NCBI GenBank assembly: GCA_963717465.1
Contig: OY970340.1
Coordinates: 296,366 to 360,365, forward strand
Origin: Candidatus Bathyarchaeota archaeon
GTDB taxonomy: Archaea > Thermoproteota > Bathyarchaeia > Bathyarchaeales > Bathycorpusculaceae
DNA: 64,000 bases
Direction of reading: 5' to 3'
Positions 20,426 to 29,150 of the stretch are shown here, piece by piece. Each line of letters opens with the position of its first letter. Positions within the stretch are counted from its first letter, which is position 1. The notes under the pieces were generated by a model. It was not told the DNA's origin and searched no databases. It saw nothing but the letters and a program-made list of their open reading frames with translations. The translations under genes were made by a program, and so were the position numbers.

Positions 20426-21124
20426 TCAGTCCTTTCGATGAAACTGGTTTTTTGCTGCTCCGCATATTGGGCAAACCCAGTTTTCTGGCAGTTTCTCGAA
20501 TGGCGTGCCTGGCTGGATACCGGAGTTTGGATCGCCCTGTGCTGGGTCATATACGTAACCGCAAACTTCACAAGCATATTTCGCGGCGTCCTTGATATCT
20601 TCCTTTTTTTCAGTTTGGGCAAATGTGGGAGCTGTCTTTGGCGTTGTTCCCCTCTTTACCTCATGATAGAAATCGTAAGTCATTTGTGGATCGTTGCTTA
20701 GGACTTTTGAATCAACTACTTCCCCCAAAAAGATTGTGTGGGTTTCTGCATCTATTTCATTTGTAACTTTCACTTCAAAGTATGCAACTGTATGGTTCAA
20801 AACTATTCGGGCACCAGTCTGGCCTACTTGATAGTCAACGCCTAAAAACTTGTTAGTGTCCCTTCCACATTTGAATCCGAAGTTTCCTATGAAAGAAAGC
20901 GGCGTGTCTTTTGAGAGAACCGAAACAGCGTAGAAACCATTTTGTTTGATGAGTTCATGGGTGAAGTTTTGCTTATTTATTGAGACAGCAACCAAGGGTG
21001 GTTGAGACGCAACTTGAACAACGGTGTTTGCAATCTGTCCGTTGCACCTACCTTCTTTCCCAGAAGTCACTACATAGACGCCATAACTTATCTTGTACAA
21101 ACCTTTAGGATCCAAACAAATCAA
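20426..21124 (-). CDS. flavin reductase-rubredoxin fusion (high-molecular-weight rubredoxin)
   Basis: [11 protein letters not shown] and THTIFLGEV flavin-reductase motifs; [10 protein letters not shown]...WVCPICG rubredoxin. Confidence 0.9.
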
Positions 21125-22258: not shown

Positions 22259-22876
22259 TTATGGCTGCTTCATGAACTCTATAAATTCTTCAAGGGTTCT
22301 TGGCTTCAGGGTGTAGTTAGTTTTTTTCTCTTCGCCGATAGTCGAATAAGGTCTTTGGCCATAATCGTGCCCTGGATAAACTTCTACAGCATCATCAAGT
22401 TTAGATAACTTGTTAAGCAGGCTATCGTACATGCTTTTTGAGTTGCCACTTGAAAGATCGGTTCGTCCGCATTCGCCTACAAAAAGGGTATCACCCGTTA
22501 ACAATTTCTTGCCGTCTACAAGCAAGCAAATGCTATCAGGAGTATGTCCAGGCGTATAAATGACTTTAATCAGTACGCTACCCACTTGTAAAACGTCACC
22601 ATCATCAGCGGCTACGTCAAAACTTGCTTGCGAAAGTTTGTAGGCAACTATTTTTGCACCAAAAAGTGAACGCAACTCCGCGTTGCCGCCGGTGTGATCA
22701 AAATGGCCATGCGTGTTAAAGATGTATTTTAACTTGAATTTTTCAGCTTTTAAAACGCGAGTTAATTCTTTTCCATTGTAGCTTGAATCCACTACTGCAG
22801 CTTCAAAGGAAGACTCATCAGCTACGATGTAAGAAAAGTTATCGCCGCTCGTTTGTCTGATTTGCCTTAAAAACAT
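22259..22876 (-). CDS. MBL-fold metallo-hydrolase (glyoxalase II/ETHE1-like)
   Basis: THGHFDH, TPGHT, TGDTLF, YPGHDY. Confidence 0.92.
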   Translation of the reverse strand: MFLRQIRQTSGDNFSYIVADESSFEAAVVDSSYNGKELTRVLKAEKFKLKYIFNTHGHFDHTGGNAELRSLFGAKIVAYKLSQASFDVAADDGDVLQVGSVLIKVIYTPGHTPDSICLLVDGKKLLTGDTLFVGECGRTDLSSGNSKSMYDSLLNKLSKLDDAVEVYPGHDYGQRPYSTIGEEKKTNYTLKPRTLEEFIEFMKQP

Positions 22877-23275
22877 TTTTCAACCACCTACACATCCATT
22901 TTATGATTTCTCTATTTTGAAGGTTCTTGTTTGAAACTTTTTTCTCATGAAATCCTCAAAGAGAAATTTTGATTTAATAAATGGTTCCTGTTAACTAATA
23001 GCCCGTCCCGTAAAAAGCTTTGTTAACTAAACTGTCAATAACTGCACGATGTACTTCTCCACCAACATTTCATTGGAAATAAAAGACTATAGTGCTCAAA
23101 ATTAATTAAGGATTTAAGGGGACTGAGCACTAATTACTTGATTCACAGGCTTCCATTAAGTTCTTTTACAACATTGCATCCATTGAAAGTATCTTTTACA
23201 AAAAAAGTGCAATATTTTTTTAGCAAATATTAAATATAACTTAGGTAGAATTGGATGCCTAGAGGTGACCAATGT

Positions 23276-23584
23276 ATGCCTCAAAGTGAACCAAAAAAGG
23301 AACCTAAGTCAACCTTTTCTTTAAAAGAGGAACTAAATAAAGACGACATTCTCCTGTTAGATATGCTGAGAAGCCCGATTGAAACATTAAAGAATCGTGA
23401 TATACTTTGCGATCAGGTAATGGTAAACCATCTCAACGTTGCTCGCGATGATATTATGAAAAGAGCTAGAGCAGTATTCATAGAAGTGGGTTTGAAACAT
23501 GACGCAATTCGCGAAGATGGAACCCAAGGATGCCAAGGTTGCAATGGATGCCAAGGATGCGGGTCAAAACACGTAATGATGTAG
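23276..23584 (+). CDS. putative RiPP precursor with a C-terminal (Q/N)GC x4 core
   Basis: GAGGTGA RBS before ATG 23276; C-terminus GTQGCQGCNGCQGCGSKHVMM; directly upstream of a radical SAM/SPASM gene. Confidence 0.7.
   Translation: MPQSEPKKEPKSTFSLKEELNKDDILLLDMLRSPIETLKNRDILCDQVMVNHLNVARDDIMKRARAVFIEVGLKHDAIREDGTQGCQGCNGCQGCGSKHVMM
23525..23560 (+). repeat. four 9-bp tandem units encoding (Q/N)GC
   Basis: CAAGGATGC CAAGGTTGC AATGGATGC CAAGGATGC. Confidence 0.9.
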
Positions 23585-23597
23585 ACAAAAGAGGAAT

Positions 23598-24704
23598 ACG
23601 CAAACGAAAGATACAACACCAATTCTTGCACAATGGGACATCACCACCGGCTGCAACTTTTCATGTTCATTTTGCCTTAGCAGTAGCGGACAGCGATCAA
23701 GAAATGAACTTAACAGTTCACAAGCAATTGAAGTAATAAACAGGCTGTATGACGCGGGGATTTTGTTTCTTCGAATACTCGGTGGTGAACCTTTTTTCCG
23801 CAAGGATATAATGGATATAATTAATTATGCGACGAAAAAGGGGATGCTAATTTCTTTTAGCACCAACGGTTCATTGATAACAAAACAAGTTGCCAAGAAC
23901 CTTAAAGCGGTTGAAAACAACATCAATTACTTTCAGGTTAGTCTGTACGGTGCAGATTCGCCCTCGTACGAAAAAGTTACGAAAAACCCTCAGGGTTTCA
24001 AACTCGTAACGAAAGGGATTCAAAACTTAATTGAAATCGGTATGAAACCAAGCATTTTTTGGGTGTTAACTAAAGACAATATAGATCAAGTTGAGAAGGC
24101 ATACGAACTTGTGTCGAAATTAGGCCTTTCTGAACTTAGACTCTCATCTAAGCTTAATTTGGGAAGAGGCAAAACTGATTGTGAATCCGATCCTACAGAA
24201 TCGATAGAAGCTTGGCGGAAAACCTTGATTATCCTAAAACAATTAGATAACATGACAAAGTTAGCTGGATCGCCAAGAGTTGTTTTACATGAAAGACCCC
24301 TGCTTGGCGAATACCTATATCATTTAACGGGTTTACCATACTTTTTTGTAACTTGTAAAGCTGCAACAACGATGATTTATGTCAATTCAGAGGGATATTG
24401 CAGTCCATGTCCCTTCTCAACTAATATGCCCAGTATGTATGATCCATTAGGACTAAGCAAAGCGCCTACTTGTTTGAATATTCTTGAAAATAGTTTTAGT
24501 GAAATTTGGAATTCAGACATTTTTATGACTTACCGCAAACTCCAAGATCCAAATTTTAATCCGAAGGAAATATTCGTCAAGTGTCCTCATTTTAAAAGTG
24601 GGTTCTGCGATCCATGTGTATTTACACCCTGCACATGTAGATTTTCAATGGAATTGATCGCAAAAGCCTTCAAAGCAAACCAAACAAACAAAATTATCAT
24701 TTGA
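23598..24704 (+). CDS. radical SAM protein with a SPASM-like C-terminal domain (peptide maturase type)
   Basis: In-frame extension upstream of ORF 23763 gives WDITTGCNFSCSFC (CxxxCxxC); also GGEP, STNG, QVSLYG, CKAA...VNSEGYCSPC, EIWNS, CPHFKSGFCDPCVFTPCTC; start codon non-canonical or mis-called. Confidence 0.88.
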   Translation, partial: TQTKDTTPILAQWDITTGCNFSCSFCLSSSGQRSRNELNSSQAIEVINRLYDAGILFLRILGGEPFFRKDIMDIINYATKKGMLISFSTNGSLITKQVAKNLKAVENNINYFQVSLYGADSPSYEKVTKNPQGFKLVTKGIQNLIEIGMKPSIFWVLTKDNIDQVEKAYELVSKLGLSELRLSSKLNLGRGKTDCESDPTESIEAWRKTLIILKQLDNMTKLAGSPRVVLHERPLLGEYLYHLTGLPYFFVTCKAATTMIYVNSEGYCSPCPFSTNMPSMYDPLGLSKAPTCLNILENSFSEIWNSDIFMTYRKLQDPNFNPKEIFVKCPHFKSGFCDPCVFTPCTCRFSMELIAKAFKANQTNKIII

Positions 24705-24892
24705 GCATATGATTTACCTCAATAAACGTTTAGATAAGACGCCAACCCCATGCTAACCAACTTGAACGATTAACTTAAAAATTCTTCTTTCAAGGGCGGC
24801 CGCATAAGCACTTGTTGTGATTTGAATAAGCTTTTATACGAATTTGCTGAGATGATAAAAAAAGCGTGCATCCGAGTGAGGATAAAGACTAA

Positions 24893-27800
24893 ATGCCGTA
24901 CATTAAAAAAATTGAGTTAAAAGGCTTTAAGTCTTTTGGACCGCAAACCGTTAAAGTAGTACTGGATAAAGGCTTCACTGCTATAACAGGTCCAAACGGA
25001 AGCGGAAAAACCAACATTATGGATGCAGTATTATTCTCATTAGGTGAATTAAGCACAAGAAGACTTCGCGCTGAAAACGCTTCCAACCTGATTTTTCACG
25101 GTTCAGAAAAAGCCGGGCAAGAAAAAGCAAAGATGGCAAAAGTCGTCATTCAATTTGACAACACTGACGGCACAATGGCGGTCGACACTACGACGGTTAC
25201 TATTTCTCGGGAAGTTTACAGGAATGGCCAAAGCGTTTACAGGCTTAACGGCAGAAGAATGTCACGCACTAACATTATAGATACGCTCTCCATGGCTGCA
25301 ATAAGCAGCGTTAGCCAAAACATTATTCCCCAAGGCACAATTACACGGTTAACAGACATTAACCCGATTGAGCGAAGAAAAATAATCGAAGACCTAATTG
25401 GAATCGCACAGTACGATGCGGAAAAAGCTGAAGCTGAAGATAAACTTCGAACGGCAGACATTTCAATTCGAACAGCCATGGGCAGAATCGACGAAGTTCA
25501 AAAACGCCTTGACGACTTAGAACGAGAACGCAACCAACTCTTACGTTACAATTTTATTCAAAACGAAATCAAAAAATTTGAGGCAATAAAAATCTCGCAT
25601 GAAGTTAGACAGCTAAACAAAAAAATTGAAGAAACAAATGGTCAAACTGAAAAAATCATCGCTAAAGTTGACCGCTTAAAGGGACTCCGTGACATGAGAA
25701 GGTTAAAACGCCGTGAAATTGAAGGCGAATGGAGAAAACTAAGCGGAGAAACCCTTGAAGAAGGCGGCTCACAGGTTCTTAAGGTACAAATAAAAATTGG
25801 CGAATTAAAATCTAAACTCACCGAGTTATCTTCAAAAATCAGTTCTGGGCAAGCAAGCCTTGAAAGTCTAAAGCGGGTAAAAGAAAACAATCAGGAACAA
25901 CACGAAACAATTCAAAAAGAAATCAAAGATAACCGATTAAAAATTCGCGTTCATCGAGCTGCTTATGAAAAAATTCAAAGCCAGATAAACCTGAAAAAGA
26001 CTGAGCATGATAGTCTTGCTCAAGAAACAGCTCAGCTTTGGGAAGGCTTAGGAGATAACAGCCAGAAAATACGCGGATTGGAGATGCAAGTTGAAACTCA
26101 CATGCGAAGGTTGGCTTACTTGCGCTCTGAATACACAAAAGATAAGGCGGCCCTTCGAATCAGTTCAGGTCGACTAAAGAATTTGAATGTCCGCAAAGAA
26201 AAGTTCGTTGCAAGTCTAAAGGAAATTGAGACAAGCCTAAATGAATTAGAAAAAGTTCAAAAAGACCAAAAAGACCAGCTTAAAAACCTGGAAACTATCA
26301 TTGACCGTAAATTGATCTCAGAAGGAAACTGTTGGAAAAGAAATTTCAGAAGCAGAAAGAATAGCTGGTTCAGCTAAGGATGCAGTAATAGAATTTGCTA
26401 CACAACGTGAGCTTGCAGCAACAATAGCAGCTGAAGAAAAAGCCTTAAGAAGCATTGAAGAAATGGGCGACGCTGGAGCACTTAATGGAATTCACGGAAG
26501 ACTTCGCAATTTAGTTAAAATTGACAAGAATTACAAGAAAGCTATAGATGCAGCAGCGATAGGATGGCTTGACGCTTTAGTCGTAAAAGATATTGACTCA
26601 GCGTTCATGTGCGCTGAAACGCTTAAAAAAATGAAGCTGGGACGAATAAAAATCATCCCTTTACAGGGAGCCATTAATCCGAAAAAGAAAGATACCCCTC
26701 ATAGAGAAGGGGTAGTTGGTGCGCTCTCGCAATTTTTAAATTACGAGACAACGTTTGAGAGTGCCGTAAATTACGTTTTCGGAGATACCATGGTCGTTTC
26801 TAATGATCAGACAGGCTTTGATCTTTCAAATGAGGGATACCGTGCAGTCACGGTTAACGGTGACTTGTATGAGCCAGGAGCCTTTGAAAGCGGTTATTAC
26901 CGAGCACCTATTGACTTCTCAACAATTATTCCAAGTGAAACCGCTATTAAAAGTCTAGATGAAGCAGTTAAAGCGCTTCAACAGCATCTTACTCAACGAG
27001 GAACAGACATAACGGGCATCGAAGAAGAAATTGACCGTAACAAAATTGAAATGACACGACTGCTGGAATCCATTAACACTTTGGATAGGGAAATAATTAG
27101 AATTAAACGAAGCGTTAAACGAACTCAATTCAACATTAGACACGTGGATAAGTATGGCGGAAAACTTGAACGGGAAAACGCAGCTTACAAAGGCCGCATG
27201 AGCATGTACGTATCTGAGCGAAACGCTATTAAACGGTTGCTACAGAAAGCTTCACTCAGACATAGCTACCTTAAGATTAAAAACAGATATGGGTCATATT
27301 CAAGAACTTGAAGTTCAACGAGAAAAACTTGCAGAAGAATTAAACACTTTACGCCAAAACTTGGGCTCCGCGCAAACGGAAATTTCAACATGCCAATCAC
27401 AATTTGACAATGTTCTAAGAACAGGTTATCAAAACGTTAAGATTCAAATATCAAAGATTGAACAGCAACAGAAACGTTTGGATAAAGAAGTTGCTGATGC
27501 ACTTCAAGAACGTGAATCACTTAAGCAGGAAATAAATGAACTGGAAAAAAGTCGCGTTGAAATTTCAAAAGCAGTTTTCTCAGCACGCGAAGAATCAAGA
27601 AAGTTCACTTCTCAAATAGACACAATCGATACTGAATTAAGATTGCTTGATGCAGAGTATGAACAGTCGGAAATGCTTCTAAATCAGCTCCAACTCAGCG
27701 TGCAAACTTATAACTTGACGACTGCAACAGCATCAAAGCCAACTAAAGCAGTATCGGTTACGAGCAGCCTTTAGAAGCGACGGATAAGCAGGTAGAAGAG

Positions 27801-28449
27801 GCAGAGACTAGCATTCAAATGATGCAGTTTGAACTTGAAAGAATAGGAGCAATAAATCAGCTTGCACTTTCTCATTATGCAGATCAAATTTCAAGGTATA
27901 GAGAATTATCGATGCGTCTAAACGAGTTAGAAAGGGAAAAGCAAGCAATCGTTCAATTCATGGATGAAGTTGAAGCGAAAAAACGCAAAGTCTTCATGAC
28001 TGCATTCGAAAAAATCAATGCCTAGATTAAAAGTTTATTTCTCAAAACTCACTGGTGGAGGAGATACCGAGCTAAAGCTGGAAAACCCCGATGAACCCTT
28101 CGCTGGAGGAATAGACATGTTAGTGCAGTTCCCAAATAAACCATCTATCGTTGTTAGTGGAGCAAGCGGTGGCGAGCGTTCAGTTTCAGCAGTCAGCTTC
28201 ATATTCTCACTAAAAGAGTTAACTCCAGCATCATTCTACATTCTTGATGAAGTTGACGCCCACCTAGACGCTTTCCACACAACAAAGCTTGCTGATTTAC
28301 TTTTGGAGGAAGCGGGGAAAACTCAATTTATCGTGATTACTTTAAGACCTGAAATGGTCAATAAAGCCCAAAAAGTTTATGGAGTCTATGAGAGAAATGG
28401 CGTTTCAAACGTTGTCACTGCTAAATTTCCGGGGCAGCTGCTTAAATGA
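24893..28449 (+). CDS. smc: chromosome segregation protein SMC, split into about five ORFs by probable assembly indels
   Basis: GFKSFG, GPNGSGKTN Walker A, hinge (GIHGRLRNLV, LGRIKIIPL), SGGE signature, ILDEVDAHLD Walker B. Confidence 0.93.
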
Positions 28450-29150
28450 CGCAAACGCCAACTCGCAGACCCTTCTATTTACGTCCACCATGGAATATTC
28501 TGTTCGAGTTAAGTAAACTGGAGAAGCTTACTCCATGGAACATTAACATTGCTTACTTGCTCGGATCGTTTCTTACCGAAATGGAGCGTGATGGAAAAGT
28601 GGATTTCAGGGCTTCTGGTGTTGCATTGGATTCTTCAGCGTTAATATATTTAATGAAGTCAAAGCTTTTGCTTACTTTGCAGGAGCCACCTGTAGAGCCT
28701 AAACCAGTGGGAGATTTTGTTCCGCCACCCTTATTTTTACCCTTAAGACACGAGTTAACATCAACAACTATTCATCATTTACTTGAAGTCTTAGACGACG
28801 TGCTTAAAGGAGAAAAACTGCTTCACCTTGACAGAACAATTGTTCAGCAGCCTGTTCTGCCAGCAGTTTCAGATTTGATGCCACAATTTGACGAGTTCAT
28901 CGCAGAACTTGAACTGCAAATGGATAAATTGTATGCACAATTAGTTGAGAAAGTCAAGGGTTCAGGAATAATAGATTTTTCCACATTAACAAAGGGTGCA
29001 ACTCGAATAGAAGCAATTCGTATATTCATTTACCTGTTATTTTTAGCTCAGGATGGCTTAGTTAGTTTGTGGCAAAATGAAGAAACAGAAGAATTATACA
29101 TAGCAGTGGGTAGCCTAAATGTTGGAAAAGTCGGAAAACCAAGCAGTTAA
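28446..29150 (+). CDS. scpA: kleisin ScpA
   Basis: PWNINI...KSKLLL, C-terminal FIYLLFLAQDG..LWQ; follows smc. Confidence 0.85.
   Translation: MTQTPTRRPFYLRPPWNILFELSKLEKLTPWNINIAYLLGSFLTEMERDGKVDFRASGVALDSSALIYLMKSKLLLTLQEPPVEPKPVGDFVPPPLFLPLRHELTSTTIHHLLEVLDDVLKGEKLLHLDRTIVQQPVLPAVSDLMPQFDEFIAELELQMDKLYAQLVEKVKGSGIIDFSTLTKGATRIEAIRIFIYLLFLAQDGLVSLWQNEETEELYIAVGSLNVGKVGKPSS

What the first reader, a model, noticed from the sequence alone, without database searches (positions are those of the whole stretch)
23276..24704. Candidate undescribed archaeal RiPP system: (Q/N)GC-repeat precursor plus radical SAM/SPASM maturase
Seen: a two-gene unit inserted between an MBL hydrolase and smc. Gene 1 (102 aa) has a long charged/helical leader-like region and ends in GT-QGC-QGC-NGC-QGC-GSKHVMM, with Cys at every third residue, encoded by 9-bp tandem units. 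Gene 2 begins about 13 nt later and has CxxxCxxC plus a Cys-rich SPASM-like tail with atypical spacing (CKAA...CSPC...CPHFKSGFCDPCVFTPCTC); no N-terminal RRE extension is visible. Established: radical SAM/SPASM enzymes next to Cys-rich peptides install thioether crosslinks (sactipeptides, ranthipeptides such as SCIFF). Inference: a new thioether-crosslinked or otherwise modified peptide family in an archaeon. No exporter or peptidase is adjacent, so the product may act inside the cell. Alternative: the CxxCxxCxxC tail is a metal or Fe-S site on a partner protein.
Basis: partly seen in the sequence, partly recalled or inferred. Interest (0 to 1): 0.85.

Follow-up and report, generated by a model that had tools for sequence, protein, structure and literature searches.

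The report
Cysteine-repeat peptide with radical-SAM maturase
A small gene for a peptide ending in four "x-Gly-Cys" units sits next to a radical-SAM enzyme gene. The same pair recurs in about 30 mostly bacterial DNA stretches, so it is a real, unnamed family of enzyme-modified peptides. This archaeon picked up its copy by horizontal transfer, and the copy may no longer be switched on.

Summary
Window 23276-23584 encodes a 102-aa peptide ending QGC-QGC-NGC-QGC-GSKHVMM. A radical SAM/SPASM reading frame follows (open 23580-24704).

Every homologue of the enzyme with upstream DNA in hand (about 24 loci, 40-63% identical) is preceded by a homologous peptide. The leader is conserved and folded. The core is (x-[G/A]-C) repeated 2-5 times. 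Only these two genes are conserved together. The leader resembles NHLP-clan RiPP leaders, but below threshold.

No NCBIfam or Pfam model names the peptide, no model claims the enzyme above its cut-off, and no paper carries the motif. It is therefore an uncharacterised RiPP-type cassette. This scan met apparently the same family twice before on other DNA (e1-2891106, e1-3568539).

- The family is essentially bacterial. The copy here is the only one among 332 genomes of its archaeal family and a 400-genome sample of the phylum. It lies in a 1.95-kb genome-specific segment at a synteny junction, which points to horizontal transfer.
- The enzyme gene has no ATG, GTG or TTG ahead of its CxxxCxxC motif. 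ACG stands where a close relative has TTG.
- The assembly is full of frameshifts, so whether the enzyme is active here is unresolved.

The chemistry is inferred only; thioether crosslinks are most likely. Interest is moderate.

The parts
22887..24825 (.). Genome-specific 1.95-kb segment holding only the cassette, at the junction of two rearranged syntenic blocks
   Evidence: Nucleotide homology to relatives ends at about 22876-22886 (MBL gene start, 5 relatives) and resumes at 24826 (smc promoter, 2 relatives). The usual neighbours of MBL and smc lie at 1.419 Mb and 1.157 Mb in this genome.
23230..23239 (+). TATA-like box (TTAAATATAA) about 37-46 nt upstream of the precursor start
   Evidence: Read from the sequence. 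The promoter role is an inference and was not tested.
23262..23268 (+). Shine-Dalgarno GAGGTGA, 7 nt before ATG 23276
   Evidence: Complementary to the 3' end of this genome's 16S rRNA, GGATCACCTCCT.
23276..23584 (+). Precursor peptide gene, 102 aa. Folded helical leader (about residues 16-81), then a disordered core
   Evidence: It aligns with 20 homologous precursors; D23, P34, D46 and A64 are invariant. AlphaFold2 gives pLDDT above 90 for about residues 20-70 and below 50 for 81-102.
23525..23560 (+). Core repeats QGC-QGC-NGC-QGC (four 9-bp units; Cys 86, 89, 92, 95)
   Evidence: TRF period 9 x4.1. Homologues carry 2-5 such units.
23591..23594 (+). GAGG, a Shine-Dalgarno-like motif ahead of the enzyme frame
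   Evidence: Sequence. It lies 6 nt before CAA 23601 and 9 nt before ACG 23604, the positions that align with the TTG starts of L120 and L035.
23604..24704 (+). Radical SAM/SPASM maturase frame. The frame is open from 23580 and homology begins at 23601-23607. There is no ATG, GTG or TTG before TTG 23763
   Evidence: All 63 family-invariant residues are kept and there is no internal stop. The AlphaFold2 model has pLDDT 82; its nearest solved folds are SkfB, SuiB, PqqE, anSME and CteB.
23652..23675 (+). CxxxCxxC (CNFSCSFC), the site of the radical-SAM [4Fe-4S] cluster
   Evidence: C25, C29 and C32 are invariant in 19 homologues.
24354..24638 (+). SPASM domain with seven Cys (C259, C277, C335, C343, C346, C351, C353)
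   Evidence: Pfam PF13186 scores 28.9 bits against a cut-off of 21.5. All seven Cys are invariant in the family.

Best explanation
The locus is a member of a rare, unnamed two-gene RiPP-type cassette. Gene 1 encodes a precursor of about 100 aa. Its leader is a folded, helical, protein-like domain that distantly resembles NHLP-clan leaders. Its core is disordered and consists of (x-[Gly/Ala]-Cys) repeated 2-5 times, where x is Q, N, R, D, K, M or E. Gene 2 encodes an RRE-less radical SAM enzyme with a seven-Cys SPASM domain.

Most likely mechanism (inferred, not shown). The enzyme binds the folded leader directly. It cleaves SAM at the CxxxCxxC cluster. The 5'-deoxyadenosyl radical abstracts a hydrogen from a carbon in or next to each repeat unit: either the C-alpha of the conserved Gly/Ala, as in the MftC-like sactisynthase StsB, or C-alpha/beta/gamma of residue x. 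The neighbouring Cys thiolate, held at an auxiliary cluster, then closes a thioether. That gives one small ring per unit, a loss of 2 Da each, and no free thiols. With no conserved protease or exporter, the product probably stays in the cell, possibly still attached to its leader.

In this archaeon the cassette was acquired horizontally. It sits in a 1.95-kb genome-specific segment between the MBL-fold hydrolase gene and smc. Its enzyme gene lacks a canonical start codon. It is therefore either translated weakly from a near-cognate codon behind an intact Shine-Dalgarno motif, mis-called in an error-prone assembly, or freshly inactivated.

My odds: real RiPP-type precursor/maturase family, about 0.9. 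Thioether chemistry, about 0.5. Enzyme active in this organism, about 0.5.
For: Pairing. All 10 loci from named genomes and all 13 metagenome loci at 40% identity or more carry a homologous peptide directly upstream, as does the closest full-length homologue L120. The exception is L121, a 5'-cut remnant.

Only these two genes are conserved across 20 loci.

RiPP hallmarks. The leader is conserved across both clades while the core varies in unit number (2: 5 peptides, 3: 4, 4: 9, 5: 30 of 48). Position 2 is Gly or Ala in 194 of 208 units and the Cys is fixed. L042 carries three tandem precursor paralogues with different cores. The leader folds confidently and the core is disordered.

Leader similarity. 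Six of 21 precursors hit the NHLP-clan model NF038399 at E down to 8e-4, and PF14407 at 1e-3. A peripheral clade has an NHLP-looking peptide with an FCNWC core plus a C11 peptidase.

Enzyme. Radical_SAM and SPASM are above the Pfam cut-offs. The best characterised relatives are MftC (126 bits) and the sactisynthase StsB (110 bits). The nearest solved folds are the RiPP maturases SkfB and SuiB, then PqqE, anSME and CteB. StsB, the MftC-like enzyme, makes Cys-to-Gly sactionines (PMC10288494).

Horizontal transfer. The genome is archaeal. There were 0 hits in 331 genomes of the same family and 0 in the 400-genome phylum sample. All named hosts are bacteria. The segment is genome-specific and sits at a synteny junction.

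Intactness. The frame has no stop, all 63 family-invariant residues are kept, and Shine-Dalgarno motifs precede both genes.
Against: No modification has been observed for any member, so the chemistry is inference from distant relatives (30% identity or less to any characterised enzyme).

No RRE and no partner protein were found, so how the leader is recognised is unknown.

The enzyme's size and RRE-less build, and the best TM-scores (0.60-0.64), match anSME. That enzyme oxidises Cys to formylglycine rather than crosslinking it.

The NHLP similarity is below every curated cut-off. Fold searches with the leader were inconclusive.

In this genome there is no ATG, GTG or TTG ahead of the cluster motif. 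A related archaeal contig, L121, holds only a 5'-truncated remnant of the enzyme gene, which suggests decay in this lineage.
Confidence: 0.6

Rival explanations
1. In this archaeon the cassette is a decaying relic. The family is a real RiPP system elsewhere, but here the enzyme gene has lost its start codon, is not translated, and the peptide stays unmodified or has no role.
For: There is no ATG, GTG or TTG between the in-frame stop at 23577 and the CxxxCxxC motif. ACG or CAA stand where the two closest homologues have TTG. L121, from an organism whose neighbouring gene is 74% identical to a gene of this genome, keeps only the 3' 275 codons of the enzyme. The cassette is missing from all 331 other genomes of the family, so it is dispensable.
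Against: The 374-codon frame has no stop or frameshift and keeps all 63 family-invariant residues, including ten cluster Cys. A GAGG motif sits 6-9 nt before the expected start. The assembly is unreliable at base level: 6 frameshifts in about 10 kb of conserved genes, and 4 single-base insertions in smc, which is intact in four relatives. A base-call error therefore cannot be excluded. Near-cognate initiation is possible.
Confidence: 0.4
2. The enzyme modifies the Cys residues without crosslinking them. One option is anSME-like oxidation of Cys to formylglycine. Others are epimerisation, methylation or another radical change. The outcome would be a reactive or metal-binding tail rather than thioether rings.
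For: The architecture is anSME-like: about 365 aa, no RRE, seven-Cys SPASM. The highest TM-scores in the PDB search are to anSME with a bound Cys peptide (0.59-0.64). Only the Cys and the small residue before it are fixed, while the presumed acceptor x varies widely.
Against: By sequence the nearest characterised enzymes are MftC and StsB and the thioether-forming SkfB. The anSME target motif C-x-P/A-x-R is absent from the cores. Cys-rich cores next to SPASM enzymes have so far mostly turned out to be thioether substrates (PMC10288494, PMC13692751).
Confidence: 0.2
3. The small protein is not a substrate. It is a metal or Fe-S binding partner, scaffold or chaperone of the radical SAM enzyme, and the CxxC-type tail acts as a ligand set.
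For: The CxxCxxCxxC spacing resembles cluster-binding motifs. The pair is strictly co-inherited, with no protease or exporter.
Against: The Cys number varies from 2 to 5 units, and some members have only two or three Cys. L042 has three tandem paralogues with different tails. The tail is predicted disordered behind a folded leader. The leader shows weak NHLP-clan similarity, which is typical of RiPP precursors.
Confidence: 0.08
4. The pair makes a peptide-derived redox cofactor in the manner of mycofactocin or PQQ.
For: The best NCBIfam hit is the mycofactocin maturase MftC, aligned nearly end to end (126 bits, residues 12-322). PqqE is among the nearest solved structures. The product appears to stay in the cell.
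Against: The score is far below the MftC cut-off of 265. The peptide lacks the C-terminal Val-Tyr that MftC needs (PMC10288494), and the tails after the last Cys are variable. No MftB/D/E/F-like or PqqB/C/D-like genes are conserved nearby. The repeat number varies, which a defined cofactor would not tolerate.
Confidence: 0.05

Closest known systems
StsA/StsB(/StsC) and BlaA/BlaB: MftC-like sactisynthases that make Cys-to-Gly sactionines (PMC10288494)
   Same: This is the closest characterised thioether-forming enzyme by sequence (NF045574, 110 bits; MftC 126 bits). Its substrate pairs Cys with Gly residues. Both are radical SAM enzymes with a SPASM domain.
   Different: The score is far below the family cut-off of 625. 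StsB works with a separate RRE protein (StsC), and no RRE is found here. The StsA core is CxCxC...GxGxG with a hairpin topology, not tandem x-G-C units. The leader here is long and folded.
SCIFF / CteA-CteB ranthipeptide cassettes (PDB 5WHY)
   Same: Both are minimal two-gene cassettes: a Cys-rich peptide plus a radical SAM/SPASM enzyme, with no dedicated protease or exporter. The product is presumed to stay in the cell and its role is unknown. CteB is among the structural matches.
   Different: CteB has an N-terminal RRE, which this enzyme lacks. The precursor matched no NCBIfam model at all. SCIFF is common in Clostridia, whereas this family is rare and scattered across six bacterial phyla and one archaeon.
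CrpA/CrpC of Methanococcus voltae (TIGR04463; PMC13692751)
   Same: This is an archaeal precedent for a SPASM radical SAM enzyme that installs thioether (ranthionine) links on a repeat-rich, Cys-rich C-terminal region behind a leader-like N-terminus.
   Different: CrpC has an RRE and belongs to a different family. CrpA is a large protein with a 17-residue motif repeated 10 times. TIGR04463 is not among the 25 best hits of this enzyme.
NCBIfam repeat-peptide systems: CXXX-repeat (TIGR04115) and ACGX-repeat (TIGR04340)
   Same: The logic is the same: a SPASM radical SAM maturase next to a peptide with Cys at a fixed short period.
   Different: The period here is 3, not 4. The enzyme scores 29.8 bits against TIGR04340 (cut-off 400) and does not match TIGR04115 at E 0.001 or better (cut-off 350).
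NHLP-leader RiPP precursors (NHLP clan; PMC12537861)
   Same: Both have a long, structured, protein-like leader followed by a short core. Hits to NF038399, TIGR04509 and PF14407 are sub-threshold but recurrent.
   Different: No hit reaches a curated cut-off. No clear GG cleavage site and no PCAT exporter are present. The QGC clade, which includes the window's peptide, gives no hit at all.

Membership tests
Radical SAM/SPASM peptide maturases (general) | CxxxCxxC radical-SAM cluster motif and Radical_SAM domain | tested here: met
   CNFSCSFC at residues 25-32 of the open frame. PF04055 scores 77.4 bits against a cut-off of 29.5.
Radical SAM/SPASM peptide maturases (general) | SPASM domain with seven Cys for two auxiliary clusters | tested here: met
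   PF13186 scores 28.9 bits against a cut-off of 21.5. Seven Cys are invariant in 19 homologues, with the unusual spacing C-x7-C-x2-C-x4-C-x-C.
Radical SAM/SPASM peptide maturases (general) | Co-inherited adjacent precursor with a conserved leader and a variable core | tested here: met
   About 24 loci carry the pair. Only these two genes are conserved.
Radical SAM/SPASM peptide maturases (general) | Demonstrated post-translational modification of the peptide | not testable with these tools
   This needs co-expression and mass spectrometry.
StsB-type sactisynthases (NF045574) | Score above the family cut-off | tested here: not met
   109.6 bits against a cut-off of 625.
StsB-type sactisynthases (NF045574) | RRE domain or a separate RRE partner (StsC) | tested here: not met
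   Only about 20 residues precede the first Cys. No third conserved gene is present.
Mycofactocin maturase MftC (TIGR03962) | Score above the cut-off, and a C-terminal Val-Tyr in the peptide | tested here: not met
   125.9 bits against a cut-off of 265. The peptide ends HVMM, and homologues end variably.
Heme/cofactor enzymes AhbC/AhbD/NirJ/PqqE | Score above the equivalog cut-offs | tested here: not met
   NirJ1 111 against 650, AhbD 108 against 500, AhbC 102 against 650, PqqE 67 against 381.
SCIFF (six-Cys-in-45) system | Precursor matches the SCIFF peptide model, and the maturase has an RRE | tested here: not met
   The precursor matched no NCBIfam family at E 1 or better. The enzyme has no RRE-sized N-terminus.
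ACGX-repeat system (TIGR04340) | Maturase above the cut-off | tested here: not met
   29.8 bits against a cut-off of 400 at G000:319996-320484.
CXXX-repeat system (TIGR04115) | Maturase above the cut-off | tested here: not met
   The window's gene gives no match at E 0.001 or better; the cut-off is 350.
NHLP-clan leader peptides | Leader matches an NHLP-clan model above its cut-off | tested here: inconclusive
   NF038399 matches 6 of 21 precursors, with best E 8e-4 and 19.5 bits against a cut-off of 40. TIGR04509 gives E 0.04 and PF14407 gives 1e-3. The window's own peptide has no hit. Fold searches gave no clear match.
anSME (Cys/Ser to formylglycine) | Target motif C/S-x-P/A-x-R in the substrate | tested here: not met
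   The cores are (x-[GA]-C)n without the motif. The structural similarity is real (TM about 0.6).

The most novel reading that the evidence does not exclude
The family defines a new RiPP class. An RRE-less SPASM enzyme recognises a folded, protein-like leader and converts each x-Gly/Ala-Cys unit into a very small thioether ring, or another Cys-derived ring. The result would be a tandem array of 2-5 rings, a sulfur counterpart of the three-residue cyclophanes. The product would stay inside the cell as a redox- or metal-active tail. The cassette would also have crossed from bacteria into an archaeon, where it is still expressed from a non-canonical start codon.
Probability: 0.25. Interest if true: 0.75.

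Novelty: new variant of a known kind. Interest (0 to 1): 0.55.

Why it matters
Radical SAM/SPASM enzymes next to Cys-rich peptides have repeatedly yielded new crosslink chemistry. This family has three features that make it a clean target.

- It is a minimal two-gene system. The core is extremely regular and looks programmable: one fixed Cys, one small residue and one variable residue per unit, with 2-5 units.
- The enzyme has no RRE, yet the leader is a folded domain. It could therefore show a different mode of leader recognition.
- Genome-mining pipelines that depend on an RRE would miss it. The roughly 15,000-enzyme compendium in PMC10288494 is RRE-based.

The archaeal copy documents transfer of a RiPP cassette from bacteria into an archaeon. 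It also illustrates how a frameshift-ridden assembly can hide or fake gene inactivation. The family is rare: about 15-25 clusters at 50% identity among 1.84 billion representatives. No function is known, so the impact is that of a good lead, not of a solved puzzle.

Tried and rejected
- Sequencing reads to check base 23605 and the smc frameshifts: no run was listed for window 23000-28500, and no RNA holder was listed.
- Direct sequence search with the window's peptide found only itself. The family appeared only by reading the DNA upstream of enzyme homologues and then searching with a profile.
- Literature searches for the QGCQGC, GCQGCQGC, MGCMGC and CQGCQGC strings, and for 'QGC' with 'radical SAM', found nothing relevant. 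Keyword searches gave only other families.
- Fold searches with the leader model were uninformative. The Foldseek best hit is a RiPP precursor chain (SonA, 7ltr) at E 3.4. VIA-align gave a best Z of 4.7, which is within noise for helical models. A PDB sequence search with the precursor profile found nothing.
- I looked for a simple single-base indel that would create a start codon or fuse the two genes. None gives ATG, GTG or TTG upstream of the motif. A +1 shift at the peptide's stop codon would fuse peptide and enzyme, but homologues keep the two genes separate. I rejected that as unlikely.
- GC content of the cassette (0.36-0.41) does not differ from the flanks, so it says nothing about the donor.
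- I could not apply the 'catalytic site proximity' residue test of PMC10288494, because no StsB or CteB sequence was available to align reliably.
- A contamination or chimera artefact is rejected. Both flanks are archaeal genes on one 3.05-Mb contig, and the precursor gene carries a Shine-Dalgarno motif that matches this genome's 16S rRNA.
Full report
**What is in the sequence**

ORF 23255/23276..23584 (+) encodes a peptide that ends GT-QGC-QGC-NGC-QGC-GSKHVMM. The four units are encoded by a 9-bp tandem array at 23524-23560. ATG 23276 (102 aa) is the likely start. It lies 7 nt after GAGGTGA (23262-23268), which is complementary to the 3' end of this genome's 16S rRNA. It also gives the same length as the homologues.

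The next frame is open from 23580 to 24704 and carries CNFSCSFC at residues 25-32. Pfam finds Radical_SAM (77 bits) and SPASM (28.9 bits), both above their cut-offs.

This is the only run of four or more x-[G/A]-C units in the six-frame translation of the whole 3.05-Mb genome.

The enzyme frame has no ATG, GTG or TTG between the in-frame stop at 23577 and TTG 23763, and that TTG lies after the cluster motif. Homologues begin with Met four or five residues before the conserved P-I-L-A-Q-W-D. The two closest homologues with DNA in hand, L120 and L035, start with TTG only 10-11 nt after the precursor's stop. The window has CAA (23601) and ACG (23604) at those two positions, preceded by GAGG at 23591-23594. 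The public annotation calls only a 286-aa protein (P0003) that covers 76% of the frame and so cannot include the radical-SAM motif.

**Assembly quality**

The neighbouring smc gene is intact (1183-1192 aa) in four relatives. Here it is cut into five pieces. The DNA alignment shows single-base insertions near the breaks that are not in homopolymers. Each piece is still 79-88% identical to the relative's protein.

Across ten orthologous genes (about 10 kb) I counted six frameshifts in three genes. The closed single-contig genome scores only 88% complete. Base-level conclusions from this assembly are therefore unsafe.

The enzyme frame nevertheless has no stop or shift over 374 codons. It keeps all 63 residues that are invariant in 19 homologues, including the three cluster Cys and the seven SPASM Cys. 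No sequencing run was listed, so the start codon could not be checked against reads.

**Is it a conserved pair?**

Yes. The enzyme has homologues of about 360-390 aa at 50-63% identity, and a second clade at about 40%. I fetched DNA for 10 loci from named genomes, 13 metagenome loci and the closest full-length homologue, L120. Each of these 24 loci has, directly upstream on the same strand, a peptide with a homologous leader and a C-terminal (x-[G/A]-C)n core.

Examples of cores:
- (QGC)5 in Nitrospirota and Prosthecochloris, and (QGC)3 in one Nitrospirota MAG.
- (MGC)4 in Bacteroidota.
- MGC-MGC-(QGC)3 in Pirellulales.
- QGC-DAC-NGC-RAC-KAC in Anaerolineales.

One locus, L042, has three tandem precursor genes with different cores.

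Clustering all flanking ORFs of 20 loci showed that only the peptide and the enzyme are shared. No protease, exporter or RRE protein is conserved.

A profile of 21 precursors found 35 proteins among 5.8 billion. All are unnamed or 'hypothetical', and none has a Pfam domain.

Over 48 precursors the unit number is 2 to 5 (5 in 30 of them). Position 1 is Q, N, R, D, K, M or E. Position 2 is Gly or Ala in 194 of 208 units. The Cys is fixed.

**Nature of the two proteins**

Leaders of both clades align, with D23, P34, D46 and A64 invariant. AlphaFold2 folds the leader into a confident helical domain (pLDDT above 90 for about residues 20-70) and leaves the core disordered. That is the picture of a precursor with a protein-like leader.

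Six of 21 precursors, all from the 40% clade, hit the NHLP-clan model NF038399 over the same stretch (best E 8e-4). There are weaker hits to TIGR04509 and PF14407. All are below the cut-offs, so this is a lead only. A peripheral enzyme clade (246 bits to the family profile) has a 77-aa peptide with an NHLP-looking leader and an FCNWC core, followed by a clostripain-family peptidase.

The enzyme reaches no NCBIfam equivalog. Its best hits are MftC (126 bits, cut-off 265), NirJ1 (111, cut-off 650), StsB (110, cut-off 625) and AhbD (108, cut-off 500). It also fails the ACGX-repeat and CXXX-repeat maturase models. The closest solved structures by sequence are SkfB, BlsE and PqqE. By fold they are SkfB, SuiB, BlsE, PqqE, anSME (TM about 0.6), ChlB and CteB.

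**Mechanism**

Nothing here shows chemistry; what follows is inference. The nearest characterised thioether enzyme, StsB, resembles MftC overall but links Cys to the C-alpha of Gly (PMC10288494). In this family a Gly or Ala precedes every Cys.

My best guess is one thioether per unit, to the C-alpha of the small residue or to a carbon of residue x. This would follow the usual route: SAM cleavage, hydrogen abstraction, then capture by a Cys thiolate held at an auxiliary cluster. Some precursors end at or one residue after the last Cys. If every Cys is used, the acceptor therefore probably lies upstream of its Cys.

An anSME-like oxidation of Cys is the main chemical rival, because the enzyme's size and RRE-less build are anSME-like.

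A role as an Fe-S or metal partner protein is unlikely, given the variable Cys count, the tandem paralogues and the disordered tail.

**Whose cassette is it?**

The genome is archaeal: the archaeal SSU model is the best of its clan, at 1475 bits. Its GC content is 40%.

No relative has the peptide (40 genomes) or an orthologue of the enzyme:
- The best identity in the 40 relatives is 37% over part of the protein, and about 30% over most of it.
- 0 of 331 other genomes of the same family, 119 of them in the same genus.
- 0 of 400 genomes sampled from the phylum.

A pattern scan of 185,579 species representatives returned ten family members, all bacterial: Nitrospirota, Chlorobiota, Planctomycetota, Bacteroidota, Pseudomonadota and Chloroflexota.

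Homology to relatives stops at the MBL gene's start (about 22886) and resumes 67 nt before smc (24826). The usual neighbours of both genes lie more than 0.8 Mb away in this genome. The cassette therefore fills a 1.95-kb genome-specific segment at a rearrangement junction. Horizontal acquisition is the simplest reading.

In a maximum-likelihood tree the window groups with L120 and L035 (support 96/84), as sister to the bacterial QGC clade. The hosts of those two contigs are unknown.

A fourth sequence, L121, keeps only the last 275 codons of the enzyme gene (68% identical by protein). Its homology to the window begins abruptly at window 23874. It lies next to a gene 74% identical to one of this genome. 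A related archaeon thus seems to carry a truncated remnant, which fits decay of the cassette in this lineage.

**Comparison with what is known**

No paper in the searchable library carries the core motif. The closest archaeal precedent, CrpA/CrpC of Methanococcus voltae, is a different, RRE-bearing family acting on a large repeat protein (PMC13692751). The RRE-based compendium of RiPP radical SAM enzymes (PMC10288494) would not capture an RRE-less enzyme.

Two earlier notes of this scan (e1-2891106, e1-3568539) describe what appears to be the same family on other DNA: a peptide ending in 'two residues then cysteine' units plus a radical SAM enzyme, in about 30 microbes, 'and one archaeon'. They are unchecked notes.

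**Verdict**

The system belongs to a known kind (radical SAM/SPASM enzyme plus Cys-rich precursor) but to an unnamed family with a distinctive periodic core, a folded leader and no RRE.

The 'archaeal' label is misleading. This is a bacterial cassette that reached one archaeal lineage, and its enzyme gene may be silent here.

The family is rare. About 13 clusters at 50% identity score above 245 bits among 1.84 billion representatives, and the scores then decline gradually.

Interest is moderate. It is a clean lead for new crosslink chemistry and leader recognition, but it is not surprising in kind.

Noticed in passing
window 24893-28449: smc is split into five ORFs. The DNA alignment to a relative shows single-base insertions near the breaks (about 26311, 27247, 27717, 28030), not in homopolymers. 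Four relatives have an intact gene of 1183-1192 aa. Elsewhere in the genome two more of ten checked genes are frameshifted, and the closed genome scores only 88% complete. The assembly looks unpolished, so any single-base inference in this window needs care.
   Followed up: partly
window 22259-22886 and 24826-24892: There is a synteny break. In five relatives the MBL-fold hydrolase gene is followed by a gene of about 250 aa whose orthologue here lies at genome position 1.419 Mb. In two relatives smc is preceded by an ABC transporter pair whose orthologues here lie at 1.157 Mb.
   Followed up: partly
L042:918-2072: Three tandem precursor genes with near-identical leaders and different cores (five, five and two units) lie ahead of one maturase.
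   Followed up: no
L046:346-879: A 177-aa precursor appears to hold two leader-like domains in tandem before a single x-A/G-C core. P0042 (172 aa) and P0051 (181 aa) are similarly long.
   Followed up: no
L129:3-3407 and L130: A peripheral clade of the enzyme family has this gene order: the tail of another SPASM protein, a 77-aa NHLP-like peptide ending GDFCNWCDEK, the radical SAM enzyme, then a clostripain-family (C11) peptidase. The peptidase is a possible leader peptidase, which the core family lacks.
   Followed up: partly
L121:1-933: A 5'-truncated remnant of the enzyme gene. Homology to the window starts abruptly at L121:106, with stops upstream. It sits beside a Cupin_3 gene that is 74% identical to a gene of this genome, so it likely comes from a related archaeon.
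   Followed up: partly
G000 genome 1117341-1119453 (outside the window): Two adjacent radical SAM/SPASM genes, also present as a pair in relatives. They score about 100 bits to several SPASM models and look like AhbC/AhbD- or NirJ-type genes.
   Followed up: no
window 20426-21124 (-): A 232-aa ORF that looks like a flavin-reductase-type domain fused to a C-terminal rubredoxin-like CxxC...CxxC module.
   Followed up: no
L035:5322-7616: The contig of one of the window's two closest enzyme homologues carries hypF (852 bits). Its best match in this genome is 58% identical over half its length. The host of that contig is unknown.
   Followed up: no
L022, L025, L026, L030 upstream of the precursor: Several bacterial loci have response-regulator or sensor-kinase genes, or a LuxR-type gene, just upstream of the precursor. 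These proteins share common domains, so orthology is not shown.
   Followed up: no
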